Source: a virus. From it: a stretch of DNA of 64,000 nt. The stretch's first letter is position 1; every line of letters begins with the position of its first letter. The position numbers and the translations under genes were made by a program. The stretch lies in IMG/VR virus record IMGVR_UViG_3300033066_001842. One strand, written 5' to 3'. Positions 1,882-33,417 of the stretch are shown here, one piece after another. The notes under the pieces were generated by a model. The model made no database searches. It was not told where the DNA came from and saw nothing but the letters and a program-made list of their open reading frames with translations.

Positions 1882-2526
1882 ATGCCAATGAAAACGATTT
1901 CCCTTAAAAACATGCTTCCTCATGGAGTAGTTGTTTATCCCAACCAAGCCGAATGGATTAGATTACAAGCAGTTATCCCACCTGTAGACGATACAAAACC
2001 CCGCAAAATCTGGCAAGATTCCACAGCATATTATGTGGATATTTTCAATCCAGGGGCGGGAGATGCTAAAGAGTATTGGATTCTTATGCCAGAACTGTTA
2101 CCCCTTGACCATGTAGACGTGAAAAACTTCTACCTCGAAACAAACAGTTGGAGAGCTTATCAAACAATGATTGAACATTCCTACGCCTTTGTTGGGGGAG
2201 TTCCCTATTGCAAAAAAGTAACTCTGGATAGTATTACCGCAATTAACGCAAACTTCACCCTCAACAATCCCCAAGAAATTACACCACCTGTATATATGGG
2301 AATTGCTAATATGCCCCTTATCCTGTTACCACCCAAATTTACAGGTGAAGTATGCGGAGTAACCTACCAAGAGTTTCTACAAAATCTTCCAAAGGTAGAC
2401 GGGGATGAAGCGGTTCTATCAAAGATTGATACCGTGATGAAAAACACTATGTTCACCCCCAAGCAAAAAGTGGATGCTATCCGTTATTTGGTAACATCCA
2501 CAGTAATTAAGCAGCCCTTAATCTAA
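1882..2526 (+). CDS. hypothetical protein
   Basis: 214-aa ORF preceded by a hairpin plus T-run; no motif recognised. Confidence 0.45.
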   Translation: MPMKTISLKNMLPHGVVVYPNQAEWIRLQAVIPPVDDTKPRKIWQDSTAYYVDIFNPGAGDAKEYWILMPELLPLDHVDVKNFYLETNSWRAYQTMIEHSYAFVGGVPYCKKVTLDSITAINANFTLNNPQEITPPVYMGIANMPLILLPPKFTGEVCGVTYQEFLQNLPKVDGDEAVLSKIDTVMKNTMFTPKQKVDAIRYLVTSTVIKQPLI

Positions 2527-3187
2527 CCAACTCTTCGTATCTATCTAGAAACATTTGTTTAGATTCATCTGGATAAGCAAAGCTTTTAAATCCAGGGTGT
2601 TTCTTTCGAATATGTTCTGGAATTTCTTTGAAACCAAACAATGCCTCAAGTGGTACTTTTTCCCCGCCAGTTAAAGTTATCATTTGGGGCATTAATCTTT
2701 CTGCCTCAATTTGCAAACAGTAACTATCGGCTTCATGTACTGCGGGTGGCAGAGGATATACAGTATTAAAAGCCGCTGCACTCGCTAACATAATACCCTT
2801 TTCCAAAGTTGTGTAACCATACAATTCGTACATCCGTTTAATGGGACGTGCGATATCATTCAAATAAGCTTCAGAAGCATCATGTAACAGACCCTCTAAA
2901 GCGTACTCTTCAGGACACAAATAGCTAACCGCTATAGAGTGTTCGGTCACGCTATAGAAATAGTTACTGTGTCCTGTCCATCTACAAAGCAGCGATAAAG
3001 CATGAGCTATATCAACAATGTTAAAATCTTGTGGTCTTGGGTGTCCAGGATAAAATTGTTTTCCTGAATGTGTAATGATAAAATTGTCCTTAGAACAGTG
3101 GTACTTGTTCTTCGGGATCTTTTGGCTTTCCCTTAAAGGGCTTTTTATAAGCTTCTGTTCTAGGGTATTTAACTCGTAAATCTCCAT
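2507..3187 (-). CDS. HD-domain phosphohydrolase
   Basis: HSIAVSYL...LLHDASEAYLNDI: H...HD...D metal-binding pattern of the HD superfamily, comparable to YfbR-type 5'-nucleotidases. Confidence 0.5.
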   Translation of the reverse strand: MEIYELNTLEQKLIKSPLRESQKIPKNKYHCSKDNFIITHSGKQFYPGHPRPQDFNIVDIAHALSLLCRWTGHSNYFYSVTEHSIAVSYLCPEEYALEGLLHDASEAYLNDIARPIKRMYELYGYTTLEKGIMLASAAAFNTVYPLPPAVHEADSYCLQIEAERLMPQMITLTGGEKVPLEALFGFKEIPEHIRKKHPGFKSFAYPDESKQMFLDRYEELVRLRAA

Positions 3188-4030: not shown

Positions 4031-4477
4031 TTAATTTCCAGTAATAAGGTTTCTCAAAATCCCAATGCGGGAGGGTTTAGGATCTGGAGCTACATAAGTG
4101 TTAGGTTCGAAAGCGGCTGTTTCTTCCTCAATCTTAATAAGTTCTGGCATAGTAACAGCTTCTAACCTCTCCAACTCGCAAGCTGTGGCTACAAACCAAC
4201 CAACTTTTGCTAGATCATCCTCTGGTACACCATCTTTAATTTCCCCAATGTATTCATCAAATTCCAGTTGGTGAATATATATCTTAAGGTGTTTCAAAGC
4301 ATGGTTGGCTCTTTCCAATTGGTACTCTTTATTATTAATACCCTTGCGCCAATTGTTGCGATCATACTTAACCTCACCCTCTCGGAAAATTTTTCCAATA
4401 CGCTTTTCAGCTTCTAGCGGAATCTGTGTTAAATCAAAGTTTTCAATATCAGTTTTAACTGCCATACATTTTACCAT
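4031..4477 (-). CDS. hypothetical protein
   Basis: 148-aa ORF in the minus-strand block. Confidence 0.4.
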   Translation of the reverse strand: MVKCMAVKTDIENFDLTQIPLEAEKRIGKIFREGEVKYDRNNWRKGINNKEYQLERANHALKHLKIYIHQLEFDEYIGEIKDGVPEDDLAKVGWFVATACELERLEAVTMPELIKIEEETAAFEPNTYVAPDPKPSRIGILRNLITGN

Positions 4478-6798: not shown

Positions 6799-9630
6799 TT
6801 ATTTAATCCTCTTGATTTGAGCCCAGTTGGCTCCTCTATACATTTTCACAGGACACCAAAATCCTTTAATCCTCTTATCCTCTTGTTCCATAACCGAAAG
6901 AAACTCTATACATTGTTCGTCTGTCCAAACCTTTGGCTTCTCAAATACCAACTCATCGTGGACTTGCAAAAGTGGAACACCATCCATACCATACCTATCA
7001 AAGAAATTAATCATATCCCCTTGAACGTGATCGGCTGAAGTTCCTTGCCCCAAGAATGAAAACGCTTGTTTTGCACATTCCAAAGGCTCATCTTGCAATC
7101 TAATAAATCTACCAGTAGCAGCCTTTAGAATACCAGTTTTTTCAATCTCTTGCAATACCCTCTGTTGCCATTCCCGAATAATCTTAAACTTTCCAAAGTA
7201 TTTCCCTTCCAACAAATCATTAGCTTTGGCACGAGCCTCTAATGACGTATCTTTAAAAATACGTTGGGCCAAATTTACACCAGAAAAAGCAATAATTCCG
7301 CCAGCGTATTCCCAATCATAGTAGGGTACAATCGCCCCCATCTTAATTGCCGCTTTAATCTTGGGTTTAGCTAAGTCCTCTTCTCTCAATAAGATAATAC
7401 CTTCCCCATAATTGCTACCATGGGCCACAGATTTAGCTACCGCTCTCTCCGTTTTGCCCAACATCTTAGCGGCGTCTTTGAATGCCCCATCAGAAACGTT
7501 TACAATCCATTGGAAAGCATCTTTTTCAATCTTGTATGTATCAAATCCGGCATACCACATACAATTATGAGAATAAAAACCATTAGATATATAAGTTTTA
7601 GACGTAGTAGTAATGCAAACTAATGGTTGTGGATTATCATATTCTATAACATTTAATACAGTAGCTCGCCCCTCACCATTTTTACCCCAAGTTCTCTTAC
7701 CATTCCATATTTTTTTAGATTTTTGTAAAAGTCTCTCTGGCCTTTTTTCTCCTAAAAAACGCAAACTATTCCAGATACCTGTTAATTGTATTGTTTTATG
7801 TGTTTTTCTGTATTGAGGTTGTTTCTTTTTTATTGAAATAGAAAAATTAAAACAATCTTTATAAAGAAGTTTTTCTACTTTATCAAAAATAGGTCCATCA
7901 GCTTGCCCAAATTGCACTCCACCAGAAGAAACGCTACCTTCACCATCAAAAATACCAGCAATATACCCATCATTAAATTGTGTTTTTGTAGTCCAAGGTT
8001 CAGCAGTAAATGGTAAAATATCACCAGTTACAATATCTTTCATTTCTACCCAAACCCTAGATAAATAACCTTTTTTTGACTTACGCAAAACAACTACTAA
8101 ATGGTCATCAGCGGCAGTTAGACTACCTCTATTGGTTTCAATAGTAAAAGTTTTTTTTCTTAAGAACTGAAGGTCAGTAATAGAACTTTCTTTAAATCTA
8201 GTACCTCTATTTCCTTGATCTTGGTTTTCATCAAATCCAATCAATTTATCATCTACAAATAAATCTTTAGCATAAATCCAAGTTAAATCTTCTTTCAATA
8301 TTTTTGTGTAGGGATCTACGCACATACGGAATTCCAAATTGGACTTATCAGCTTTAATCAAACATTGGTCATCCCTTTTTGGAATAATAGCAACCCTGGC
8401 TTGAGCAAAGGGGGATTGTTCCTCTTGTGGTGTATCCTCATCATATCCAGGAATATTTTGGAAATTAGGATCTTTAGAACTAAAACGCCCAGTACTTGTA
8501 CCAATAACAATAAATCGCGGATGCATTAAACCGTCATCCCCGAAAAATTTATCGTCAAACCAACTCTTAAAGCCTTTACCCGCACCCTTGTATTGGTACG
8601 CTTTTATCAACAATTGATAGGGTAATGGGTGACTGTCAATTCCCTGTACAAATTCGGTGAGCCCAACATCATTATTATCGGCTAACTCTGTTAGGGCTTT
8701 TTCAATAGCTTCTGCATTAAATTTATCAAGAAAGATCTTGTGCTTTTTGAAATAGTTAACAGCAGCAGCAGGAGCATTAGGATTAAAATGTTCATATTTC
8801 TTAGTTTTTCCGCTCTGTGTATAGGGGAAAAGCTTTTCTTTTTCGTCATCGCTAATCTTATCCAATCTGGCAATTAGATCACGATCTACGCGAACTCCAC
8901 CCTTTTGCATCAAATGAGCAATATAGGAAACCTTCAAAAGATCCCGATAGAATTGATAGGGAACACCCTTCTCTTCCATCTCTTTCAGCATTTCTATAAA
9001 GCCCTCGCGTGCCACATAACTATCCATGGCATTGTAACCAAAGACTTTATGGCTTGGACAGGGGCCAGTACATGTGACGCCACGACACATTTTAAACTGA
9101 GGCAACCCACAATAGAATGTGTTCATTGTCCACAAATTAAGGAATCCTAAGCTTCCTTTTTCTCCACCAACCTTTCCCCCGCTACTCTGTTTCACCAAAT
9201 CCTGATTCAACAAAAAGTGGGTAATCATCCCATCTTCAAAGCAATCTAGGGAAATCTCTCGCCCAAGTACTTTCTCAATAACTTCTTTTTCAGCCCCAAT
9301 AACAGAATAGCCAACCAATCTAGTCATACCTAATTCCGCCACCTGTACAATAAAGTCTACAACTTCTTTACTGTAAGGGGCGGAGGCAGCTAAATTATGG
9401 TTGGCTAAACCTGTAATGGTTGGCTTATTAGTTTTGGGATCGAACTCAAAATCTATTCCCGTAAACTCAGAGGGATTCTCTAAAATTTCACGCAAATATT
9501 TATTCCCTTCGGCATACTTTGGCCAAAAGGATTTTCCATCAAGTGATTTCGAGTTCTCAATACTTGTGAAAAGATTTAACTGTACTTCACGATTCCCGTA
9601 AAGGTCTATCTCTTCGAATCTCTTTGACAT
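6799..9630 (-). CDS. family A DNA polymerase (Pol I-like) interrupted by an intein
   Basis: Pol A motif A DKSNLEFRM (cf. DYSQIELRI), motif B RAVAKSVAHGSNYGEG, motif C LQVHDELVF; the 943-aa length is inflated by a ~253-aa insert. Confidence 0.75.
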   Translation of the reverse strand: MSKRFEEIDLYGNREVQLNLFTSIENSKSLDGKSFWPKYAEGNKYLREILENPSEFTGIDFEFDPKTNKPTITGLANHNLAASAPYSKEVVDFIVQVAELGMTRLVGYSVIGAEKEVIEKVLGREISLDCFEDGMITHFLLNQDLVKQSSGGKVGGEKGSLGFLNLWTMNTFYCGLPQFKMCRGVTCTGPCPSHKVFGYNAMDSYVAREGFIEMLKEMEEKGVPYQFYRDLLKVSYIAHLMQKGGVRVDRDLIARLDKISDDEKEKLFPYTQSGKTKKYEHFNPNAPAAAVNYFKKHKIFLDKFNAEAIEKALTELADNNDVGLTEFVQGIDSHPLPYQLLIKAYQYKGAGKGFKSWFDDKFFGDDGLMHPRFIVIGTSTGRFSSKDPNFQNIPGYDEDTPQEEQSPFAQARVAIIPKRDDQCLIKADKSNLEFRMCVDPYTKILKEDLTWIYAKDLFVDDKLIGFDENQDQGNRGTRFKESSITDLQFLRKKTFTIETNRGSLTAADDHLVVVLRKSKKGYLSRVWVEMKDIVTGDILPFTAEPWTTKTQFNDGYIAGIFDGEGSVSSGGVQFGQADGPIFDKVEKLLYKDCFNFSISIKKKQPQYRKTHKTIQLTGIWNSLRFLGEKRPERLLQKSKKIWNGKRTWGKNGEGRATVLNVIEYDNPQPLVCITTTSKTYISNGFYSHNCMWYAGFDTYKIEKDAFQWIVNVSDGAFKDAAKMLGKTERAVAKSVAHGSNYGEGIILLREEDLAKPKIKAAIKMGAIVPYYDWEYAGGIIAFSGVNLAQRIFKDTSLEARAKANDLLEGKYFGKFKIIREWQQRVLQEIEKTGILKAATGRFIRLQDEPLECAKQAFSFLGQGTSADHVQGDMINFFDRYGMDGVPLLQVHDELVFEKPKVWTDEQCIEFLSVMEQEDKRIKGFWCPVKMYRGANWAQIKRIK
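7564..8322 (-). mobile_element. intein with LAGLIDADG homing endonuclease inside the DNA polymerase
   Basis: the insert starts at Cys (LEFRM|CVDPYTKI) right after Pol motif A and ends SHN|C (codons checked on the DNA: TAT TCT CAT AAT TGT); internal GYIAGIFDGEGSV LAGLIDADG-type motif. Confidence 0.65.
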
Positions 9631-13505: not shown

Positions 13506-13638
13506 TGGATGGGGTGAGATTCGAACTCACAACCTCTCGTTTAGCATACGATAAAGTTAATCAAAACGGTTCAAATTTACGTTTGAACTAAAAGGTAGAC
13601 TAACAGTTTTTAGCGCTCTACCATTGAGCTACCCACCC
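13506..13638 (-). ncRNA. tRNA-like RNA with a ~70-nt insert replacing the anticodon arm (element E1)
   Basis: ends pair as a 7-bp acceptor stem GGGTGGG/CCCATCC; D-arm GCTC-AATGGTA-GAGC; T-arm GTGAG-TTCGAAT-CTCAC; discriminator A, no CCA; the insert has a CTAAAA/TTTTAG helix closing a 14-nt loop and a GTTCAAA/TTTGAAC hairpin. Confidence 0.45.
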
Positions 13639-16520: not shown

Positions 16521-18212
16521 TTAATCTTCGTCTTCAGTTAAGGCTTTTTCCGAATTAAACGCATGAATTACACTTGTTACATTCGGATCAAATCCCGTTA
16601 CATCCAACGAATAAGGATCACTATCACTAGCAAAACCAGCAACACCATAACCAGTAGACTGCATACCAAGAGACATCAATCTCGTTTTGGGCTTATTCAT
16701 AAGTTTACGATAATTTTGCGTTAATGTCAAGGGGTGTTCCCCTGTATTGAAATCGTTATCGGTGATATGAATGAAGCAATCCACGTCTTGCTTGTTCTTG
16801 ATAGCATGTTTAATTGGTAAACCTGCATCAGTGTAACCCGTATTATATTTTTTGGCTTTTGTAATAGCCGTTGAAATATTGTCGGTTTTGGTCAATGGCA
16901 AGTCATTCAGAACACTAGAGAAACATTTGACATCACACCATGGTTCTCTTTTTACAATGGTAAGGGCGATTGTGGCGGCGGCTTCACAGAAAGACATTAA
17001 ACCGTTCGCCATCATGCTAGACATTGAGCGCGAAACGTCAACAGAAACCATAAAGTTTTTGCCAGTAGCGGGGGCAACATCGAAAGAGTTGTTGAAAGCT
17101 TCTTCCAAAGCTTCTTGAATTTTGGGAACAGGTTTCCAGGTTAATGAACCTTTCAAACCTTGTCCTTTTCCATAAGTGCGCAGAGCAAACAAAAGTTTAA
17201 GAGGGTGAATTCCAGCTTTTGTCAATTGCTCAATATTGGTAAGGCGACGTACAACCGTTTTGACATCCTCATTAGTTCCTGAAAGTAAACCACTCGCAGT
17301 TAATGAAGAAAGTTGGCGAACGGTTGCCATGTATGGCATTTTCGCAAGTAGGGCTTGTTGAACTTGAGGCACATTTTTAAACCATGTGGGAATCATTTCA
17401 TGGGTCATATCGGTAGCCCCAATCAATTCCACAAGACGTTTAATTTGTGCGTCAGATTTTTCATTTTCTTTCCATGATTGGATTTCAATGAAAGCTTCAA
17501 TCTGGCGTCCCCCCTTTGTCAAAATTTTAGGATCAATATCGGCTAAAGCTTTTAAAACTCCAGCTTCATTTCCATTAACCACATAATTAATGAAAGAGTT
17601 TGTAATTGATCCTTGAAACTCAGGGTGGGAAAGGCGAAGTAAGTCCTGGTGCGACCAACCATCACGTTGACGATACTTCAATAATTGATAAACCAGTGAG
17701 TCAAATGACTTATCGGTGTACCAGTCACCTACATAACGTTTCAACATGCGGCCCCATCCACGCATTCCCGTAACAATTTCCGCAAAGTGAAATAAATCAG
17801 TACCAGTATTGGCAACATGTTTTAGTTCATTGAGGAACATATCACGAACAGTACGACTAGGATGCGATGCGCCTAGAGCCAAAGTATATAACATTGGTTC
17901 TTTTGTAAGAGCACGACGTTGGCTTGAAATTTCTCGAATCTTTTGAACAACTTCTTTGGGGAAATTTTGAATCATCGCTCGGATGTTCGCCGTATTTTGG
18001 GCCAAGAGTTGTTGCGATCCTACAGCAAAGGTATGATTTTCCACACCCAAGATAAGGAATTTTTCGAGAAACTGTTCAGGAGTAAGTTTCAGTGAGTATC
18101 CGCCCCCAAAATTAGGAACAGAGAACTTTGCATTTTTCCCCGTAACAGGTTTTGTTACAGGATTGCTTTTTGCAGTTTTGTTTTTCTTTTGAGAGTAAGT
18201 AGAAATGGGCAT
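16521..18212 (-). CDS. Ro60/Rsr-like protein (TROVE domain plus C-terminal vWA)
   Basis: 563 aa; ~370-aa N-terminal helical-repeat region followed by a vWA fold with MIDAS VSVDVSRSMS (DxSxS); size and domain order match Ro60 orthologues. Confidence 0.55.
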   Translation of the reverse strand: MPISTYSQKKNKTAKSNPVTKPVTGKNAKFSVPNFGGGYSLKLTPEQFLEKFLILGVENHTFAVGSQQLLAQNTANIRAMIQNFPKEVVQKIREISSQRRALTKEPMLYTLALGASHPSRTVRDMFLNELKHVANTGTDLFHFAEIVTGMRGWGRMLKRYVGDWYTDKSFDSLVYQLLKYRQRDGWSHQDLLRLSHPEFQGSITNSFINYVVNGNEAGVLKALADIDPKILTKGGRQIEAFIEIQSWKENEKSDAQIKRLVELIGATDMTHEMIPTWFKNVPQVQQALLAKMPYMATVRQLSSLTASGLLSGTNEDVKTVVRRLTNIEQLTKAGIHPLKLLFALRTYGKGQGLKGSLTWKPVPKIQEALEEAFNNSFDVAPATGKNFMVSVDVSRSMSSMMANGLMSFCEAAATIALTIVKREPWCDVKCFSSVLNDLPLTKTDNISTAITKAKKYNTGYTDAGLPIKHAIKNKQDVDCFIHITDNDFNTGEHPLTLTQNYRKLMNKPKTRLMSLGMQSTGYGVAGFASDSDPYSLDVTGFDPNVTSVIHAFNSEKALTEDED

Positions 18213-26206: not shown

Positions 26207-26573
26207 TATCCTCTTTCAATTTATTTTCAACTTTTTTCTGTTTCAGGCGTTCTCTCAACTTTTCTAAAGTATCCTCAACGCTCTGTTTACTCGTATTGGT
26301 ATTTTTCTGGGCTTCCAAATTTGTTAAATTCCCGCCCAAAATATTATCAATGTTTTGTTCAACTTGAATCTTCTGTTCATACAGAAGCGCCAAATCCATG
26401 ATTCGCCCACTTTTTTCCATCAATTGTATCCAACACTCAACCAAATGATTGAAATCAGTTGGAATCATAGAAACCGCCCCATTTACGAAAATAAATTCAT
26501 ATCCCGCATCTGTGGATCGAATTTCTCTCATATGATGAGTTTCAAAAATCTGTTTCCCAATCTTAAGAAACAT
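26193..26573 (-). CDS. hypothetical protein
   Basis: 126-aa ORF. Confidence 0.4.
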   Translation of the reverse strand: MFLKIGKQIFETHHMREIRSTDAGYEFIFVNGAVSMIPTDFNHLVECWIQLMEKSGRIMDLALLYEQKIQVEQNIDNILGGNLTNLEAQKNTNTSKQSVEDTLEKLRERLKQKKVENKLKEDIDNE

Positions 26574-27621
26574 TTTCTGTTTCCTCTTTCTTTTTCACAG
26601 GAATAACAATATTATGCAACTCCTTGAAATCATCAATTGCATTCTTAACCAACGTCTCCACAAGATCATTGGCCCTCTGTGGAAAATCCACCCCTTTAAT
26701 TGTACCTCTAAAATAATTGCCAAACAAGGTGCAAACCCTACTTGCATCATCGCTGAGCTTGTTCGAATTCTCCCACTTCGTAATATCATTCCACAAATCA
26801 GTAGGAGATTTCACAAAAGTAGGCGTATGACTGGGCGAACCTGGAACCCGTGGATCGCCGCCAACTCTCGTATCCCCCAATTTCCCCTGTGAATTCCCCA
26901 ATTCTTTGGGATCACCGCTTCCCTCAGAACTCTTATTCTTTTTAACACTGATTTTCCCAGTGTCAGGATCAGTTGCCTTAGTCGCAACATCATCCCTCAA
27001 ATTTTCAGGAACTTTCAAAAGCGCCATTGCATCCGTATAGCTCAACAATCCGGTATGCAACTTATTTTGCAACCCTGCATCCAACTTCATCAAGCTCAAA
27101 TACTGCGAAACAGTACCCTGACTCTTGAAACAAAAGAATTCCGCAATTTCCTGTTGCGTCATCTTAAAATGCTCACTCATAACCTTCATAGACTTTGACA
27201 TATCCATGGGGCTAAAAGTGCGAAAATGATTTTCTCCCAACTGTTTCAGAAAATGGGCCTTCTCATCTTCTTCCCCATTTTCCAAAACATACTTAATCTT
27301 TGTCTTGGGTTTCCCCTCATTTTCCTCAATCTCATTCAAAATCAACAACGCAGTATGGCGACAATACCCAATATCGACAACCAACTGCTTACTCTTATTA
27401 ATCTTACAAACAATTGGCTGCGCTTGTCCATGATCCCGAATATTAAACGCCAGATCATTCAATTGTGCTTGCGTCGGAACCCCAAATCGGCCCTTATTAT
27501 TGCCCCAATCGGCAACAATATTTTCCGCAAACTCTTCCAAAAACCCCGTCTTAGCTTTAGACATTTCTTTTTTCCTTTTCTTTAATAATTTATCTCCAAA
27601 TATGAAGGGGACACCGAACAC
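26563..27621 (-). CDS. ParB-like nuclease-domain protein
   Basis: N-terminal QAQPIVCKINKSKQLVVDIGYCRHTALL resembles the ParB/Srx GxxRxxA core; C-terminal K/E-rich. Confidence 0.45.
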   Translation of the reverse strand: MFGVPFIFGDKLLKKRKKEMSKAKTGFLEEFAENIVADWGNNKGRFGVPTQAQLNDLAFNIRDHGQAQPIVCKINKSKQLVVDIGYCRHTALLILNEIEENEGKPKTKIKYVLENGEEDEKAHFLKQLGENHFRTFSPMDMSKSMKVMSEHFKMTQQEIAEFFCFKSQGTVSQYLSLMKLDAGLQNKLHTGLLSYTDAMALLKVPENLRDDVATKATDPDTGKISVKKNKSSEGSGDPKELGNSQGKLGDTRVGGDPRVPGSPSHTPTFVKSPTDLWNDITKWENSNKLSDDASRVCTLFGNYFRGTIKGVDFPQRANDLVETLVKNAIDDFKELHNIVIPVKKKEETENVS

Positions 27622-28923: not shown

Positions 28924-29559
28924 TGTATTTTCCTCCTAATTCTCTAAGATATTTAGGCTGCTAAGCACAGTATCAAAAATTTTTCAAGCGTCTCTCCAGC
29001 CGGGCTTTCACCGCTGTCCCTACTCTGTATATTAAATTTCTGAACCTTTAGGGGCCACCATGCTTAGCCCTAAATCTCCTAAAGAAGTGGGGAGACATAA
29101 AAAATGCAAAAACTAGAATTGACTATGAGTCCAATTTCCTCGTCCCACATTTACAACACTCCAACCCTTGCCCGTCCAAAGTTTGTGTCGGTGTGTCTGT
29201 CTCCCACTCTCAAAGGATATCAATTTCTGATAAGGAACGCAACACCTTTTATATAGTACTTTACTCCCAATTCACACTAGTACTACCTTCCTAGTACCTT
29301 TTCAACAATTCCAAATCCAAATTTTCAAAATCCCCTTTGTTCAAAAAAATTGTACGCCGTTATATGTGCGTGGCCGTAAATTAAACCAAATTTTAAAAAA
29401 AAAACGGGATATTAATTATAATATATAAATTCTAAAATATCAATAATTGATATTATCAATAACCGATTATCGATAGCCAACAACCGATACCCAATTAGCG
29501 ATTGAAATATAGGGATTTTTCGCCATGGAAAAAACTTTCAAAAACTTTCATTTTTTCTC

Positions 29560-30768
29560 TTGCAATTTTTCGGAGCCAACTTTAAACTTGTTTATGTAGG
29601 GTGGATGATGATTGACAAACGATCAACGCCCCCTAACATCAAACCTCAAGAAAAAGGACACAAGAAAATGGCTTCGAATATGCTCGATATGGTAATCAAC
29701 AATGCTGTGGCAGGTGCCACTTCTAACATTTGGTGGGCCAATGGCAAAAAAGGCGGTGTTGACGGAACCTCAAAAATCGTCGCACCAACTTCTATTAGAG
29801 GGGATGAATCGGTGGATGAACTGATCCAGCTTCTCAACCTGGATTGGGATCCAATCGCAGAACGGCTAGTGAATCCCTCGACCAAACAAAAGAGCGATGC
29901 ATGGGAGATCTATCGTCCTGATAACGGGGATGTTCTCGCAACAGTTATTTCTTCCAAGAAAGTGGGGATTCCCCCATCTCCGCGTGAGATCCTGGAATTC
30001 ATCTCCTCGATCCGAGAGCAAGTCAATGCCCAATGGGCAACTGGCGGACTCACAACAACAGCCCGTCTGTGGGCAAACATCCGCTTGCCACAAGCAATGG
30101 TGGATATGGGCGGCGGCGACGTGATCCACAACACGTTGATGATGATGTATGACTACAAGGCGCGTAAAGGACGCCTCAAGTTGTGCGCAACCAATGTTGT
30201 GTGTGACAACACTCTCCAGTATGCGCTTGACGAGAAATCCAAGGTTGACGTTGATTGGTCCGACCGCGATGACATCGCCACGGGGAAGCTTCTCAAAGCG
30301 CTCAAGCTTGCCGATGACCGCTTCAACTCCGTCATTAACAAGTTTGGTGTTCTCCAATCGCGTCACGCCGATCTGCGCAACGCGCCCGAGATCATCACCT
30401 ACGCTCATATCCTCGACACACCAGCAGTACTTGCCCGTGTTTTGGATGCACAACAACGTGACGGCGGAGAAGCCTATGATATCGTGCATGACCTTCTCAA
30501 GTCTTATTCCATGCAACGGGCAACGGACTTGACCAGCTTGGGGAAAACCATCATCACCAATATGGTTGCTGGAGTGGGGCAAGAAATGGAAGCACGCAAA
30601 GATAACTGGTATGGGGCCTTGCAGGGCGTTACCTACGCTGTGGATCATGCCATGGGACGTGACGCAGATTCCCGCATTGACTCAGGGTATTTTGGTGCCC
30701 GTTCCGATCTCAAGAGCAATGCCCTCGAAGTTGCGTTGATCGTGTCGGATGTGGCAAAATCAATCTAG
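29560..30768 (+). CDS. hypothetical protein in the GC-rich island (possibly DUF932-type phage/plasmid protein; start likely at Met 29646)
   Basis: 402-aa ORF on the plus strand inside a minus-strand block; local GC about 50% versus about 38% elsewhere; NIWWANGKKGG near the N-terminus; not RtcB-like. Confidence 0.4.
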   Translation: MQFFGANFKLVYVGWMMIDKRSTPPNIKPQEKGHKKMASNMLDMVINNAVAGATSNIWWANGKKGGVDGTSKIVAPTSIRGDESVDELIQLLNLDWDPIAERLVNPSTKQKSDAWEIYRPDNGDVLATVISSKKVGIPPSPREILEFISSIREQVNAQWATGGLTTTARLWANIRLPQAMVDMGGGDVIHNTLMMMYDYKARKGRLKLCATNVVCDNTLQYALDEKSKVDVDWSDRDDIATGKLLKALKLADDRFNSVINKFGVLQSRHADLRNAPEIITYAHILDTPAVLARVLDAQQRDGGEAYDIVHDLLKSYSMQRATDLTSLGKTIITNMVAGVGQEMEARKDNWYGALQGVTYAVDHAMGRDADSRIDSGYFGARSDLKSNALEVALIVSDVAKSI

Positions 30769-30851
30769 CGCCTAAGGGCTAAACCTGCACTCAATTTCGG
30801 GGGAAGCTAAAAAATTCCCCCAAATTTCAATCAAAAAAACGGAGAATTTTC

Positions 30852-31226
30852 ATGGAAACCCCTTACAGTTTGAGAATTGAGCACGGAGCTGGAATGATTA
30901 TCTACACTCTAATTGATCGTGGAGTGTTGCGCGCAACAATGGCCGTTTGTGAAGCTGACGAGAATCTCGGAATGCTCACAACAAATAATCCGGTGAATTA
31001 TTTCTCGGATGCCCCACAATTGCCAGAGCATACGGCGCAAGCGGTTTGTCCTCGCCAATGGGGATATCATCCGAATTATCCACACGTTACGGGCGTTCTC
31101 AAAGCAGCATTGATTACGCACCTGGAAGAGCTTGCAATCAAGGCTACATGTACGATTCAGAGCAGTGTGGTAAAGAGGATCTTACCTACTTCAAACGAGT
31201 CAACACTGAGGCCAATTGGCAACTGA
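30852..31226 (+). CDS. hypothetical protein (island)
   Basis: 124 aa. Confidence 0.35.
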   Translation: METPYSLRIEHGAGMIIYTLIDRGVLRATMAVCEADENLGMLTTNNPVNYFSDAPQLPEHTAQAVCPRQWGYHPNYPHVTGVLKAALITHLEELAIKATCTIQSSVVKRILPTSNESTLRPIGN

Positions 31227-31245
31227 AGGAAGTGGAGTTTTCCTA

Positions 31246-31518
31246 ATGTACTTTAGACGCATAACGAAAACAGCGGCTCGGAAACGGTTCGAGCAAGGGC
31301 TTAATTTCCACATCATTGCACACAAGATGCGGCCCGGATTCCCATTCCAAATGGGAATGGACGTATTCCCCCAATTCATCGCCAACAGAGCTATTGTATC
31401 GGGAGAGTCTAACCAACAAACCTTCGATGCAATGGTGAACCAATTCACGTATTACAATTGCAGCCATGAAACGGGATACTATCCCGCATTCTACATTGTG
31501 GAAAAAGGGGAAAAATGA
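31246..31518 (+). CDS. hypothetical protein (island)
   Basis: ORF 31216..31518 trimmed to Met MYFRRITK. Confidence 0.3.
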   Translation: MYFRRITKTAARKRFEQGLNFHIIAHKMRPGFPFQMGMDVFPQFIANRAIVSGESNQQTFDAMVNQFTYYNCSHETGYYPAFYIVEKGEK

Positions 31519-31647
31519 AATGGTTTGATTGGGCGATCATTCTTTTTATTTGGGTCTTTACAATTCCCGCACAATGCGGGTTTGCGAGGATCTTACACAA
31601 ATGGCTGAAAGGGGAGTTGAAAATATTCCCATGGGAGTGGTAGGAAA

Positions 31648-31851
31648 ATGAAAAACAAACAAAAGATTGAAACGCTTTTTAGGGACAGGTTTCCTGATGT
31701 CCGTATCTTGGGAATGTATCCACTCAAAGCCTATTCTACAGATAGACATCCTGCATGGTGTATCACGGGTGGGGACGGGAATGTTTATCTGTGCGATGAG
31801 GTGAGTATTGAGTGCTATACCAAGGGATTGGTAATCTGGATTTCAACCTAA
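31648..31851 (+). CDS. hypothetical protein (island)
   Basis: 67 aa. Confidence 0.3.
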   Translation: MKNKQKIETLFRDRFPDVRILGMYPLKAYSTDRHPAWCITGGDGNVYLCDEVSIECYTKGLVIWIST

Positions 31852-32044
31852 CCAAAAACATGGTCAAAACATAGGGGCAACATCTAGGAAAGGAAAAATA
31901 TGATTTACATGATAACGGCATTCAGTGCGATTTCGTATCCCGCTACGAGAATGGGATAAAACTCACATAAGGCTAAAAACATAGGGCGCAGCCCCCTCAA
32001 TCAATCGGAAGCAATTCCCTGTAAACCAAGAACATATCTATTAA

Positions 32045-32068
32045 TAGGCCCTTAATTGGGCCTTTTTT
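32045..32068 (+). terminator. rho-independent terminator closing the island operon
   Basis: AGGCCC-TTAATT-GGGCCT followed by TTTTTTATT. Confidence 0.5.
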
Positions 32069-32124
32069 ATTGCCCAAATCCAAAGTGTATATTATCGATA
32101 ATGCTACAGTGGCAATTATATATA

Positions 32125-32400
32125 ATCCCCTAAAGTACTAAAGTACTAAAGTGCTACCTAAGTAACTAATTCTCTTGACTTTATGTAAGTGTATGATAAT
32201 ACAGTACTTACCCCACTGATGCATACTCTGGGCTGTTTGTCAAGTACAAAATGATCTTAGTACTTTAGTACTGATTCAATCGTAGTACATTAGTACTGTG
32301 TCACCTTAGTACTTTAGTACTGTGTCGTACCAGTACTTTAGTACTAGTACTTTTTACTTAGTACGGGGGTACCAGTACCCTTAGTACTTTAGTACTAGAG
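32125..32400. repeat. iteron array built on AGTACT(TTAGTACT) units
   Basis: TTAGTACTTTAGTACT occurs 4 times direct (32267, 32305, 32331, 32378), once inverted as AGTACTAAAGTACTAAAG (32130-32150), plus degenerate copies such as GTAGTACATTAGTACT. Confidence 0.7.
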
Positions 32401-32511
32401 CCCCCCGCCCTCCCCTGTGACCTTGGTCACAGTATGTATATATTTCTACAAAAATTTTAGAATTTAGAACGTTTCGTGTTTCGCTGTACTTCGCTTCGCT
32501 ACGTACAAAAT

Positions 32512-32769
32512 TCACCCCAACCTTGACCCAACATCTTTTGTCCTAAACCTATAAGTCCCACCAATCCCCTTTGGTCCCTCCAATTGCACCGCCGTATAAA
32601 AATACTTATAACTAACAATTCCTTTTGAATTATAATTCAAACTCTTATATACTACAGGGGGGAACCATTTATTCCATCTTTGCAATCCAAAAATTGCAGC
32701 CCCAATTAACGAAAACCAATTTCTTCTACTAAATTTTTTCATTGTACTAATTTCCCGCTGCCTTCCCAT
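32512..32769 (-). CDS. hypothetical protein
   Basis: 85 aa. Confidence 0.3.
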   Translation of the reverse strand: MGRQREISTMKKFSRRNWFSLIGAAIFGLQRWNKWFPPVVYKSLNYNSKGIVSYKYFYTAVQLEGPKGIGGTYRFRTKDVGSRLG

Positions 32770-32979: not shown

Positions 32980-33417
32980 TTATTTTATTCCAAATTCCTT
33001 TTTTAACCAATTATTAATTTCATTTAACAATTGCATTTCTTCTTTTTTGCCCCCCAAATCTGGGTGATATTTTTTGCTCAACTGTTTAAAACCTGTGGCA
33101 ATTAATTCTCCAACCATTACTTTTTTATTTTCTTCCGTATAAATATAAAGATTTTCAAATTTTGGGGGTTTTTGGTTTTCTTTTGTTCCGTGGGCTCCCG
33201 TTGGTCGCCCTTTTTTAGCATCACCTTTACCAGATCCCCCAAAAAGCATATCTGGAGTAACCACAATAAAGTGTTCTTCCTCCAGAACCTCGATAATCCT
33301 TCCCAACAGTGGGGGGTTGATATCAAGATTTGATAATGCCCAAAGCAAGTAGTCAACCTCGATTTCATCTAACCAGTGTCCCTTCCATTTTCCAAATGGC
33401 ATTTTATGTCTTGACAT
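32980..33417 (-). CDS. DnaJ (J-domain) protein
   Basis: C-terminal KKYHPDLGGKKEEMQLLNEINNWL carries the HPD tripeptide in J-domain context. Confidence 0.5.
   Translation of the reverse strand: MSRHKMPFGKWKGHWLDEIEVDYLLWALSNLDINPPLLGRIIEVLEEEHFIVVTPDMLFGGSGKGDAKKGRPTGAHGTKENQKPPKFENLYIYTEENKKVMVGELIATGFKQLSKKYHPDLGGKKEEMQLLNEINNWLKKEFGIK

What the first reader, a model, noticed from the sequence alone, without database searches (positions are those of the whole stretch)
32125..32400. Iteron array of TTAGTACTTTAGTACT units
The 16-mer occurs 4 times in direct orientation (32267, 32305, 32331, 32378) and once inverted (32130-32150), with degenerate copies in between (GTAGTACATTAGTACT). Each unit is itself built from the palindrome AGTACT. 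Spaced direct repeats of a palindromic half-site in a ~300-bp non-coding stretch at a strand-switch point are typical of replication origins (iterons), partition sites or packaging (pac) sites.
Basis: seen in the sequence. Interest (0 to 1): 0.65.

Follow-up and report, generated by a model that had tools for sequence, protein, structure and literature searches.

The report
Conserved TAGTACTA repeat array in phage
A 300-bp non-coding stretch in the control hub of a novel 72-kb podophage holds about 19 copies of one short palindrome, is kept almost unchanged in distant relatives, and is clearly a docking array for a DNA-binding protein, though whether it serves genome-end formation/packaging, replication start or capture of a host repressor is unresolved.

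Summary
The repeats are real: the 14-mer AGTACTTTAGTACT (≤1 mismatch) occurs 7 times in 64 kb, all within 32134-32396 (0.02 expected). The window is a novel ~72-kb tRNA-rich podophage with SU10-type portal and adaptor. The array lies in the non-coding hub from which both transcription arms diverge. Six related phages (TerL identity down to 46%, GC 37-56%) and one unrelated phage carry the same array. The unit is the palindrome TAGTACTA, usually paired 8 bp apart. All related arrays end with an invariant dyad, a GC hairpin and an AAAAATTTT block, while neighbouring proteins are only 20-45% identical. This is a polar, selected protein-binding array. No initiator, ParA, RHH or S24 protein was found; GC skew does not switch. 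The dyad equals the cyanobacterial LexA box, but the same dyads also precede parA-RHH operons in unrelated elements. SU10- and T7-type phages have their ends at such hubs, T7 has comparable repeats there, and one relative's contig stops 10 nt past the hairpin. I rank a terminus/packaging array first (~0.3), then origin (~0.2), host LexA (~0.17) and centromere or operator (~0.12).

The parts
32046..32070 (+). Intrinsic terminator (AGGCCC-TTAATT-GGGCCT plus T-run) that ends the DUF932 operon just left of the array.
   Evidence: Terminators occupy the equivalent place in L039 and L085.
32093..32104 (.). ATTATCGATAAT palindrome. It is one copy of the second hub motif (the TTATCGATAA type) and marks the left edge of the array.
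   Evidence: Equivalent ATCGAT/ATCAAT motifs lie at the left edge in L039, L084 and L085.
32130..32157 (-). Inverted block of three tandem 8-bp units (AAAGTACT, AAAGTACT, AAAGTGCT), forming two overlapping dyads at 32134-32147 and 32142-32155.
32176..32248 (+). Spacer holding a TTGACT -35-like hexamer (32176-32181) with a poor -10, and two solitary units (AGTACT at 32203, AGTACA at 32243).
   Evidence: Better promoter-like sites occupy the same place in L084 (TTGACA-16-TATAGT) and L085, but their number is not above chance.
32257..32351 (+). Four direct dyads at a 24-25 bp period: TTAGTACTTTAGTACT (32257), GTAGTACATTAGTACT (32282), TTAGTACTTTAGTACT (32306) and CAGTACTTTAGTACT (32331), plus an extra unit offset by 6 bp (AGTACT at 32346).
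   Evidence: Two of these dyads are invariant columns in the five-phage alignment.
32358..32396 (+). Invariant right end: a GGGG-spacer dyad (TTAGTACGGGGGTACC), a CAGTACC unit and the terminal dyad CTTAGTACTTTAGTACT.
   Evidence: Nearly identical in L039, L084, L085 and L033. The terminal dyad is also kept in the 56%-GC relative L095.
32397..32432 (+). C-rich tract followed by the hairpin CTGTGACC-TT-GGTCACAG (32415-32432).
   Evidence: A GC-rich hairpin occupies the same position in L084, L085, L039, L033 and L095.
32433..32470 (+). Conserved A/T block: TATGTATATAT (resembling the AATGTA element of phiEco32 gp36 promoters) and ACAAAAATTTTAGAATTTAG (A5T4 at 32450-32458). This is the candidate 'action site' for cutting, opening or transcription start.
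   Evidence: Alignment. In L095 it is among the most AT-rich 30-mers of the hub. The gp36 consensus is from PMC12276001. The motif does not recur in the window.
29254..29300 (+). Satellite cluster of three TAGTAC units upstream of the DUF932 operon.
   Evidence: Dyads lie at the equivalent place in L084 (position 65) and L085 (position 1674).
29380..29520 (.). Second hub array: an AT-rich stretch plus TATCAATAA/TTATCGATA repeats. It uses a different motif, which changes between clades.
   Evidence: L039 246-500; L085 1850-2040. L095 has TGAATAAATATTCA palindromes instead.
29668..30768 (+). DUF932 gene. This is the only gene found next to the array in five of the six related phages.
26563..27621 (-). 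ParB-like HTH protein. It is the only recognisable sequence-specific DNA-binding protein in the window and a candidate binder, but no link to the array has been shown.

Best explanation
The array is a polar docking platform for many copies of one dimeric, sequence-specific DNA-binding protein that recognises the palindrome TAGTACTA, usually as two units 8 bp apart. It ends in an invariant dyad, a GC-rich hairpin and a short A/T block where the DNA is acted on. I think the most likely role is recognition for genome-end formation and packaging in a T7/SU10-type podophage with short terminal repeats. In that model a packaging protein, such as a small terminase, coats the repeats and positions cutting or concatemer-junction processing at the hairpin/A-T block. 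This would be the counterpart of the short-repeat arrays beside the T7 terminal repeat. Shown here: the array, its conservation, its polarity and its hub position. Inferred: the protein, the cutting site and the terminus.
For: The array is non-random and unique to this region in the window. It is conserved at the syntenic site in L039, L084, L085, L033 and L095, with invariant dyads, while neighbouring proteins are 20-45% identical. Every related array shares the order mixed units, dense dyads, terminal dyad, GC hairpin, AAAAATTTT block. The phage belongs to the SU10/GP4 structural type (SU10_adaptor, SU10_portal, Gp80). SU10 and phiEco32 have 193-bp terminal repeats, and their two arms start at the ends (PMC4281155). 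On a circular map that is the arm-divergence hub, which is where the array sits. In L095 and L022 the array is 3.8 kb and 1.8 kb upstream of TerL, compared with 2.1 kb from the left end to TerL in SU10. The L033 contig stops 10 nt after the hairpin. A sister contig of L084 stops inside the array, and L084 itself stops in the partner ATCGAT array. T7 has about 20 CCTAAAG-like heptamers in and beside its terminal repeat (24 matches against 4.3 expected). SU10 has CACGGGGA repeats in and near its terminal repeat.
Against: No reads were available, so no terminus has been mapped. Contigs of the window phage, L085, L095 and L039 read straight through the array. Contig breaks near repeats can be assembly artefacts, and no second copy of the L033 end was found. 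No small terminase was identified; the gene before TerL has a JAB domain. In the window clade the array is 13 kb from TerL. The motif stays identical across deep divergence and in an unrelated phage, while the neighbouring array changed its motif. That is unexpected for a fast-evolving phage protein and its sites. The function of the T7 repeats is itself unknown.
Confidence: 0.3

Rival explanations
1. Replication origin. The units are iterons bound by a phage initiator, the embedded promoter-like sites give transcriptional activation, and the hairpin/A-T block is where the duplex opens. The satellite TAGTAC cluster upstream of DUF932 would act like the P4 crr next to ori.
For: The array has many short repeats in both orientations in a non-coding gap beside the replication-gene arm, at the point where the arms diverge. 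A conserved A/T block lies directly beyond the last repeat, even in the 56%-GC relative. TTGAC(A/T) promoter-like sites lie inside the array in L084 and L085. A second small cluster of the same units lies 2.9 kb away. From my own knowledge, P4 ori/crr uses octamer iterons in two clusters.
Against: No Rep, O or alpha-type initiator was recognised among about 70 ORFs scanned. GC skew stays negative across the whole window with no inflection at 32 kb. The conserved A/T block is only about 20-40 bp, and the array itself is 38% GC, like the genome. The other hub array (29380-29520), with its long AT-rich stretch, looks more origin-like. Iteron motifs normally drift with their initiator, but this motif does not.
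Confidence: 0.2
2. Host-factor array. The dyads are SOS boxes bound by the host LexA repressor (cyanobacterial type), and the phage uses them either to sense DNA damage at its control hub or to soak up LexA as its genome multiplies.
For: AGTACTTTAGTACT fits RGTACNNNDGTWCB exactly and AGTACWNWTGTACT at 13 of 14 positions (PMC3091678). On a PWM built from 46 published sites the array boxes score 15.0-18.7 bits (training q25 14.1, median 16.5), and they are 6 of the 7 hits at or above q25 in the window. The motif is invariant across phages with 46-77% TerL identity and GC 37-56%, and in the unrelated L022, while a neighbouring array changed motif, as expected for an external binder. Host hints fit Cyanobacteria: only 29% of genes have a Shine-Dalgarno motif, and there are zero CGATCG sites, CCGG at O/E 0.39 and many absent 6-bp palindromes. 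HIP1-rich cyanobacterial chromosome contigs carry tandem arrays of the same dyad.
Against: The host is unknown, and every attempt to identify it failed. Position 9 is A in nearly all array dyads but T in 44 of 46 published sites. Many units are solitary TAGTACTA sites with no partner, especially in L033 and L095, where only 3 of about 21 units form dyads. A LexA dimer does not need such sites. The same dyads precede parA-RHH operons in non-cyanobacterial-looking elements, so other proteins also read this sequence. No promoter is clearly overlapped. The invariant hairpin and A/T block are left unexplained. No cyanobacterial genome in the GTDB scan had paired boxes.
Confidence: 0.17
3. Centromere-like or operator array for a small phage-encoded dimer (ribbon-helix-helix or ParB-type). 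The protein spreads over the repeats to partition, condense or silence the hub, as ParG does on parH.
For: [quoted passage not shown] In L013, L015, L024, L034 and L036, arrays of the same 8-bp units lie directly upstream of parA plus a gene with an RHH-like C-terminus. The window encodes a ParB-like HTH protein 4.5 kb away.
Against: No Walker-A ParA is present in 64 of about 72 kb. No homologue of the L013-type RHH or of classic RHH cores was found in the window or its relatives. No ParB was seen in the visible parts of L084 or L085. The gene set is that of a virulent phage (DNA polymerase, tRNAs, NAD salvage; no integrase, repressor or plasmid Rep was seen). In the window the array is not upstream of an operon.
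Confidence: 0.12
4. The array is transcribed into a ~230-270 nt non-coding RNA built of repeated AGUAC-UUUA-GUACU hairpins that sequesters an RNA-binding protein.
For: Promoter-like sites lie in the left part of the array, and a hairpin plus T-rich tail lies at its right end, in the window, L084 and L085. Each dyad can fold into a 5-bp stem with a tetraloop. In L020 the dyads sit at the tips of ~36-bp perfect palindromes with variable arms. The phage encodes a Ro60 RNA-binding protein.
Against: Units occur in both orientations, and also upstream of the candidate promoter and outside the putative transcript. Units overlapping at a 6-bp offset cannot all fold. Promoter counts are no higher than in shuffled sequence. 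No Rfam family matched; the only hit is far below its gathering score. Symmetric changes in a palindrome cannot distinguish an RNA stem from a dimer-binding site.
Confidence: 0.05

Closest known systems
Short-repeat arrays flanking the terminal repeat of phage T7 (SRL/SRR, CCTAAAG heptamers)
   Same: Both are dense arrays of one short motif, about 20 copies in 350-400 bp at regular spacing. Both lie in a non-coding region at the boundary of a podophage genome map and are followed by a promoter-type element. For T7 this was checked: 24 matches against 4.3 expected, at a 13-bp period from 175 to 361.
   Different: The T7 units are non-palindromic direct heptamers at a 13-bp period, and their position relative to a mapped terminal repeat is known. 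Here the unit is a palindrome, mostly paired at 8 bp with a 24-25 bp period, both orientations occur, and the terminus has not been mapped. The function of the T7 arrays is itself not established.
parH centromere/operator of plasmid TP228, bound by the RHH protein ParG (type Ib partition)
   Same: Both are arrays of 4-bp boxes separated by 4-bp A/T-rich spacers, with degenerate copies in either orientation (PMC3130281). Arrays of the very same GTAC-plus-spacer units precede parA-RHH operons in other viral contigs.
   Different: No ParA or RHH partner was found in this phage. In the window the array is not upstream of an operon. At about 300 bp it is longer than parH, and it has a polar end structure (hairpin and A/T block).
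Cyanobacterial LexA (SOS) box RGTACNNNDGTWCB / AGTACWNWTGTACT
   Same: The 14-bp dyad is identical in half-sites and spacing, and its PWM scores fall within the range of genuine sites.
   Different: Known boxes occur singly, or rarely in pairs, and overlap a promoter. Here 6-8 occur in tandem with no clear promoter. Position 9 is A rather than the near-invariant T. Many solitary half-palindromes accompany the dyads. A cyanobacterial host has not been demonstrated.
Iteron origins with octamer repeats (satellite phage P4 ori/crr; lambda ori)
   Same: Both have multiple copies of a short initiator-site-like repeat in both orientations, a second cluster a few kb away, and an adjacent A/T-rich element. 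The comparison rests on my own knowledge of P4 and lambda.
   Different: No initiator gene was recognised, there is no skew switch, and the A/T element is short. The motif does not co-vary with phage divergence as iterons usually do.

Membership tests
Iteron-type replication origin | Several copies of one short repeat in a non-coding region | tested here: met
   19 GTAC-core units in 300 bp, and 7 near-exact 14-mers.
Iteron-type replication origin | Adjacent A/T-rich DNA-unwinding element | tested here: inconclusive
   A conserved block of about 20-40 bp (TATGTATATAT...AAAAATTTTAGAA) lies right of the hairpin in all relatives. It is short, and the array itself is not A/T-rich (38% GC).
Iteron-type replication origin | Cognate initiator (Rep/O/alpha-type) gene encoded nearby | tested here: not met
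   No such family was found among about 70 ORFs scanned with Pfam and PHROGs. 7.7 kb of the genome lies outside the window.
Iteron-type replication origin | Switch of strand compositional skew at the site | tested here: not met
   GC skew is negative on both sides and the cumulative skew is monotonic. This is weak evidence for phages.
Type Ib partition centromere (parH/ParG-like) | Array of tetramer boxes with 4-bp A/T-rich spacers | tested here: met
   GTAC boxes with TTTA, ATTA or TAAA spacers; 8 bp is the commonest spacing. The definition is taken from PMC3130281.
Type Ib partition centromere (parH/ParG-like) | Located upstream of a parA plus RHH-protein operon | tested here: not met
   The window has no Walker-A ParA and no RHH homologue. 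The feature is met in the unrelated contigs L013, L015, L024 and L036.
Type Ia ParB/parS system | ParB with HTH, plus a ParA partner and a 16-bp parS palindrome | tested here: not met
   A ParB-like HTH protein is present, but there is no ParA and the motif is unlike canonical parS. Binding is not testable here.
Cyanobacterial LexA (SOS) box | 14-bp site matching RGTACNNNDGTWCB | tested here: met
   The match is exact. PWM scores are 15.0-18.7 bits against a training median of 16.5.
Cyanobacterial LexA (SOS) box | Host is a cyanobacterium encoding LexA | tested here: inconclusive
   Only circumstantial evidence: weak SD usage, the palindrome-avoidance profile, and the same dyad arrays in HIP1-rich contigs. 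Homology searches gave no host.
Cyanobacterial LexA (SOS) box | Box overlaps the promoter of a regulated gene | tested here: not met
   No sigma-70-type promoter is overlapped in the window. Promoter-like sites in L084 and L085 are no more frequent than in shuffles.
Cyanobacterial LexA (SOS) box | LexA protein binds the site | not testable with these tools
   Needs EMSA, DAP-seq or ChIP.
Terminus-associated short-repeat array / pac site of DTR podophages | Phage of T7/SU10 type with short direct terminal repeats | tested here: inconclusive
   The portal, adaptor and fibre families are of SU10/GP4 type, and the TerL is podophage-like at about 25% identity. Terminal repeats cannot be seen without reads.
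Terminus-associated short-repeat array / pac site of DTR podophages | Array adjoins the physical genome end | tested here: inconclusive
   The L033 contig ends 10 nt past the hairpin, and two assemblies of the L084 phage end in or near hub arrays. However, four other contigs read through.
Terminus-associated short-repeat array / pac site of DTR podophages | Bound by the terminase small subunit | not testable with these tools
   No TerS was identified; the gene before TerL has a Prok-JAB domain.
CRISPR array | Repeats of 24-48 bp separated by unique spacers of similar length; cas genes or a leader | tested here: not met
   The units are 14-16 bp with 8-10 bp between them, both orientations occur, and there are no cas genes.

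The most novel reading that the evidence does not exclude
The array is a phage-borne cluster of host SOS boxes. Six to eight high-affinity LexA sites per genome copy would capture the cyanobacterial LexA repressor. This would either let the phage read the host's DNA-damage state at its control hub, or, as genomes multiply, titrate LexA and switch on host repair and recombination genes without DNA damage. The appearance of the same dyads in unrelated phages would then be convergent recruitment of one host protein.
Probability: 0.17. Interest if true: 0.8.

Novelty: new variant of a known kind. Interest (0 to 1): 0.5.

Why it matters
Cis-acting sites such as origins, pac sites and termini are almost never annotated in uncultured phages. 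This array is a sharply defined, family-wide cis element in a large uncultured group of ~60-72 kb podophages: 329 TerL relatives had E ≤ 1e-20. Its motif stays constant while everything around it diverges, including a neighbouring repeat array. That pattern is unusual for a phage protein and its sites. It points either to a very constrained machine, such as packaging or end processing, or to a host protein. If it marks the termini, it gives a sequence handle for orienting and completing these genomes. If it binds LexA, it would be a new way for a phage to interact with the SOS system and would assign the whole family to cyanobacterial hosts. Both readings can be tested directly with existing read sets and simple binding assays.

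Tried and rejected
1. CRISPR-like array: rejected on unit size, spacing and orientation.
2. Known RNA family: only tRNAs reached gathering score. A sensitive scan of 30700-32700 gave only a spurious miRNA hit of 32 bits against a gathering score of 90.8.
3. Stack of phage-sigma promoters: the phiEco32 gp36 element is AATGTA, not TAGTACT. The RTGTATAWA element beside the array does not recur in the window (2 matches against 3 expected).
4. Bacteroidetes SOS motifs (GGA-N5-TCC and CTAA-N5-TTAG): they do not fit the array.
5. RHH partner: profiles built from the L013-type ParG-like proteins and from classic RHH cores found nothing in the window or its relatives. The second profile rests on sequences recalled from memory and is only a heuristic.
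6. DUF932 as binder: no PDB relative by sequence. The single-sequence AlphaFold model was unusable (pLDDT 36), so no fold search was run. The literature gives no function.
7. Host identification: all attempts were uninformative. These were TerL, MCP, DUF932 and ParB-like searches against cultured phages and plasmids and sample accessions in the literature.
8. Generic pattern of two dyads within 5-35 bp: in genomes it gave three unrelated operator-type repeats. In metagenomes it gave mostly satellite-like tandem repeats, so it is not specific.
9. The specific 21-mer found nothing in JGI metagenomes.
10. NAMPT anchors P0123, P0124, P0126 and P0127 turned out to be unrelated phages that share only the NAMPT gene.
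11. SU10 termini: no comparable palindromic array, only CACGGGGA repeats.
12. Long direct repeats that might betray a terminal repeat within the hub: none found.

Full report
**Observation**

The exact 16-mer TTAGTACTTTAGTACT occurs at 32257, 32306 and 32381. A copy with a different 5' dinucleotide is at 32330, a degenerate copy (GTAGTACATTAGTACT) is at 32282, and an inverted copy is at 32134-32149, followed by a third overlapping 8-bp unit. The 14-mer AGTACTTTAGTACT with up to one mismatch is found 7 times in 64 kb. All 7 lie within 32134-32396, against 0.02 expected. A further dyad with a GGGG spacer, at 32358-32373, fills the apparent gap in the 24-25 bp period. In total, 19 GTAC cores lie in 300 bp.

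**Genomic context**

- The window is a phage. The replication genes lie on the minus strand to the left: a family A DNA polymerase with a LAGLIDADG insert, a DnaB-like ATPase, Sak4, a PD-(D/E)XK nuclease and a ParB-like protein.
- tRNAs, NAD-salvage genes, TerL, portal and capsid lie on the plus strand to the right.
- The portal, adaptor and fibre proteins match SU10 and GP4 podophage families.
- No cultured phage is close: TerL is only about 25% identical to the nearest.
- The phage's own contig is 71,725 bp, and 329 TerL relatives exist in metagenomes, many on contigs of 60-72 kb.
- The array sits in a 4.5-kb hub (28.9-33.5 kb) from which the two large arms diverge.
- Within the hub the array lies between the terminator of a small DUF932 operon (32046-32070) and the 3' end of a small minus-strand block that encodes a J-domain protein.

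**Conservation**

The only homologue of the DUF932 protein (44% identity) lies on a 3.4-kb contig, L039. That contig carries the same motif array at the same place. The right-hand 125 bp align almost base for base, better than the coding DNA does.

Using NAMPT as an anchor, I reached two relatives with 73-75% TerL identity (L084, L085). Both have 22-23 units in 400 bp at the syntenic site. The IMG/VR contig L033 shares only a remote DUF932 gene (E = 1.4e-6) and has the same array at its very end. L095 has 46% TerL identity, 56% GC and a different restriction-site avoidance profile. It has a 1.8-kb non-coding hub with 17 units in 400 bp, ending in the same dyad.

A five-way alignment shows invariant dyads separated by variable spacers. 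Neighbouring proteins are only 20-45% identical.

**Anatomy**

Symmetrised position frequencies around every GTAC core give the same 8-bp palindrome, TAGTACTA, in all seven arrays. In the window clade most units are paired 8 bp apart, giving AGTAC-N4-GTACT with TTTA as the usual spacer but also ATTA, TTCA, CCTT, TTAA and GGGG. In L033 and L095 most units are solitary.

All six related arrays are polar, in this order:
- a terminator;
- a copy of a second palindrome (ATTATCGATAAT);
- units in mixed orientation, interspersed with TTGAC(A/T);
- dense direct dyads;
- an invariant GGGG-spacer dyad and a terminal dyad;
- a GC-rich hairpin;
- an A/T block with TATGTA and AAAAATTTT.

A small satellite cluster of the same units lies upstream of DUF932. 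It sits next to a second array built from a different palindrome (TTATCGATAA type). In L095 that second array is replaced by TGAATAAATATTCA palindromes. One hub array has therefore changed its motif with divergence, while the TAGTACTA array has not.

**What binds it**

A dimeric protein that reads a short palindrome, with cooperative pairing at 8 bp, is the simplest reading. No candidate stands out:
- The window has no Walker-A ParA.
- It has no homologue of the RHH proteins found elsewhere.
- About 70 scanned ORFs contain no S24 or LexA-like protein and no Rep-type protein.
- The only recognisable DNA binder is a divergent ParB-like HTH protein 4.5 kb away.
- DUF932 is the only gene next to the array in five of the six relatives. 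Its function is unknown and I could not model it.

**The LexA lead**

The dyad matches the cyanobacterial LexA box RGTACNNNDGTWCB exactly (PMC3091678). On a PWM built from 46 published sites the array boxes score 15.0-18.7 bits, within the range of genuine sites. They account for 6 of the 7 hits at or above the training q25 in the window. The constancy of the motif across diverged and unrelated phages fits a host factor.

Host hints are compatible with Cyanobacteria but circumstantial:
- only 29% of genes have a Shine-Dalgarno motif;
- CGATCG is absent, CCGG is depleted, and many 6-bp palindromes are missing;
- HIP1-rich chromosomal contigs carry tandem arrays of the same dyad.

Against the LexA reading:
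- Dyad position 9 is A where 44 of 46 known sites have T.
- Many units are solitary.
- The hairpin and A/T block are not explained.
- No cyanobacterial genome was hit in the genome scan.
- In a separate group of contigs (L013, L015, L024, L034, L036), arrays of the same 8-bp units sit upstream of parA. Where the downstream sequence is available (all but the short L034 locus), an RHH-like gene follows parA. This is a parH-type arrangement, so other proteins also read this sequence.

I keep LexA as the most novel reading that the evidence does not exclude.

**Origin, partition or packaging**

*Origin.* The architecture (repeats followed by an A/T block) and the hub position fit. However, there is no initiator gene and no skew switch, the A/T block is short, and the other hub array looks more origin-like.

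*Partition.* The box-plus-spacer design fits parH, but there is no ParA and the gene set is that of a virulent phage.

*Terminus or packaging.*
- SU10 and phiEco32 have 193-bp terminal repeats with both arms starting at the ends (PMC4281155). On a circular map the ends therefore fall at the arm-divergence hub.
- SU10's left end is 2.1 kb from TerL. The arrays of L022 and L095 lie 1.8 kb and 3.8 kb from TerL.
- T7 carries about 20 CCTAAAG-like heptamers in and beside its terminal repeat, and SU10 has CACGGGGA repeats there.
- The L033 contig ends 10 nt beyond the hairpin.
- Two assemblies of the L084 phage end inside hub arrays.
- Other contigs read through, which is expected for collapsed terminal repeats but equally fits no terminus at all.

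**Verdict**

The array is real, conserved and polar, and it is a selected protein-binding array. I rank the readings as follows:

| Reading | Confidence |
|---|---|
| Recognition array for end formation or packaging | about 0.3 |
| Replication origin | about 0.2 |
| Host LexA capture | about 0.17 |
| Centromere-like or operator array | about 0.12 |
| Structured RNA | about 0.05 |

The finding is a new variant of a known kind of element. Its interest is raised by the unusual constancy of the motif and by the LexA-box identity. Read-based terminus mapping, host identification and simple binding assays would settle it.

Noticed in passing
window 29380-29520; also L039 246-500, L085 1850-2040, L084 1-20, L095 4700-4880: A second repeat array lies upstream of the DUF932 operon. 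It combines a long AT-rich stretch with TATCAATAA/TTATCGATA palindromes. The L084 contig ends inside it. In the distant relative L095 the motif is replaced by TGAATAAATATTCA palindromes. It looks more like a classical origin than the GTAC array does.
   Followed up: partly
window 16521-18212 (-) and 13506-13638 (-): The phage encodes a Ro60 orthologue (TROVE plus Ro60 vWA domains). About 3 kb away, Rfam reports a 133-nt tRNA-like hit that ARAGORN does not call. It could be a tRNA with an insertion, or a YrlA-type Y RNA partner of Ro60.
   Followed up: no
window 4031-4477 (-) and 2507-3187 (-): There is a MazZ-type dATP/dGTP diphosphohydrolase domain (PF18909, E = 5e-8) next to a weak HD-domain (YfbR-like) protein. 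These are parts of the module used by 2-aminoadenine (Z-genome) phages. No PurZ was seen among the ORFs scanned.
   Followed up: partly
whole window; also L083, L084, L085, L033: Six-bp palindromes are strongly avoided. Twenty-three are absent, including TGATCA (11.6 expected), GGGCCC, GGCGCC, CAGCTG, TCCGGA and CGATCG; GGATCC occurs once against 12.6 expected; CCGG has O/E 0.39. AGTACT itself is not avoided. L095 (56% GC) has a different avoidance profile.
   Followed up: partly
window 30800-31950: A GC-rich block (47.7% against about 39%) follows DUF932 and contains only short overlapping ORFs on both strands with no family hits. It is absent from L039, where the DUF932 stop codon is 460 bp from the array, compared with 1360 bp here. 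It may be an insertion or an unrecognised gene or RNA.
   Followed up: no
L013 150-650, L024 2240-2790, L034 330-870, L015 8185-8610, L036 11440-11740: A separate group of 70-145 kb viral contigs has long runs of 8-bp GTACnnnn units directly upstream of parA. Where the sequence extends far enough (all but the short L034 locus), a small gene with an RHH-like C-terminus follows, and then a Rep-like gene. This is a parH-type type Ib partition locus and suggests a phage-plasmid lifestyle.
   Followed up: partly
L020 280-780: Seven perfect palindromes of about 36 bp have different arm sequences, each centred on AGTACTAAAGTACT, near the start of an 8.4-kb viral contig. The variable but always complementary arms point to selection for hairpin or cruciform formation.
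   Followed up: no
L057 4690-4780 and L046 6800-6950: HIP1-rich (cyanobacterial) chromosome-sized contigs carry tandem arrays of the same AGTACTAAAGTACT dyad. In L057, three copies lie immediately upstream of an SDR/FabG-like gene.
   Followed up: no
window 6799-9630 (-): The family A DNA polymerase gene carries a LAGLIDADG-like domain in its middle (residues 554-609), suggesting an intein or a homing-endonuclease insertion. Several TerL relatives also carry LAGLIDADG/intein domains (P0027, P0090, P0120).
   Followed up: no
window 32980-33417 (-): The hub protein conserved in L084 and L085 combines an N-terminal QSregVF_b/DUF3820-like motif with a C-terminal J-domain-like HPD motif (KKYHPDLGG). 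It may be a phage-encoded Hsp70 co-chaperone.
   Followed up: no
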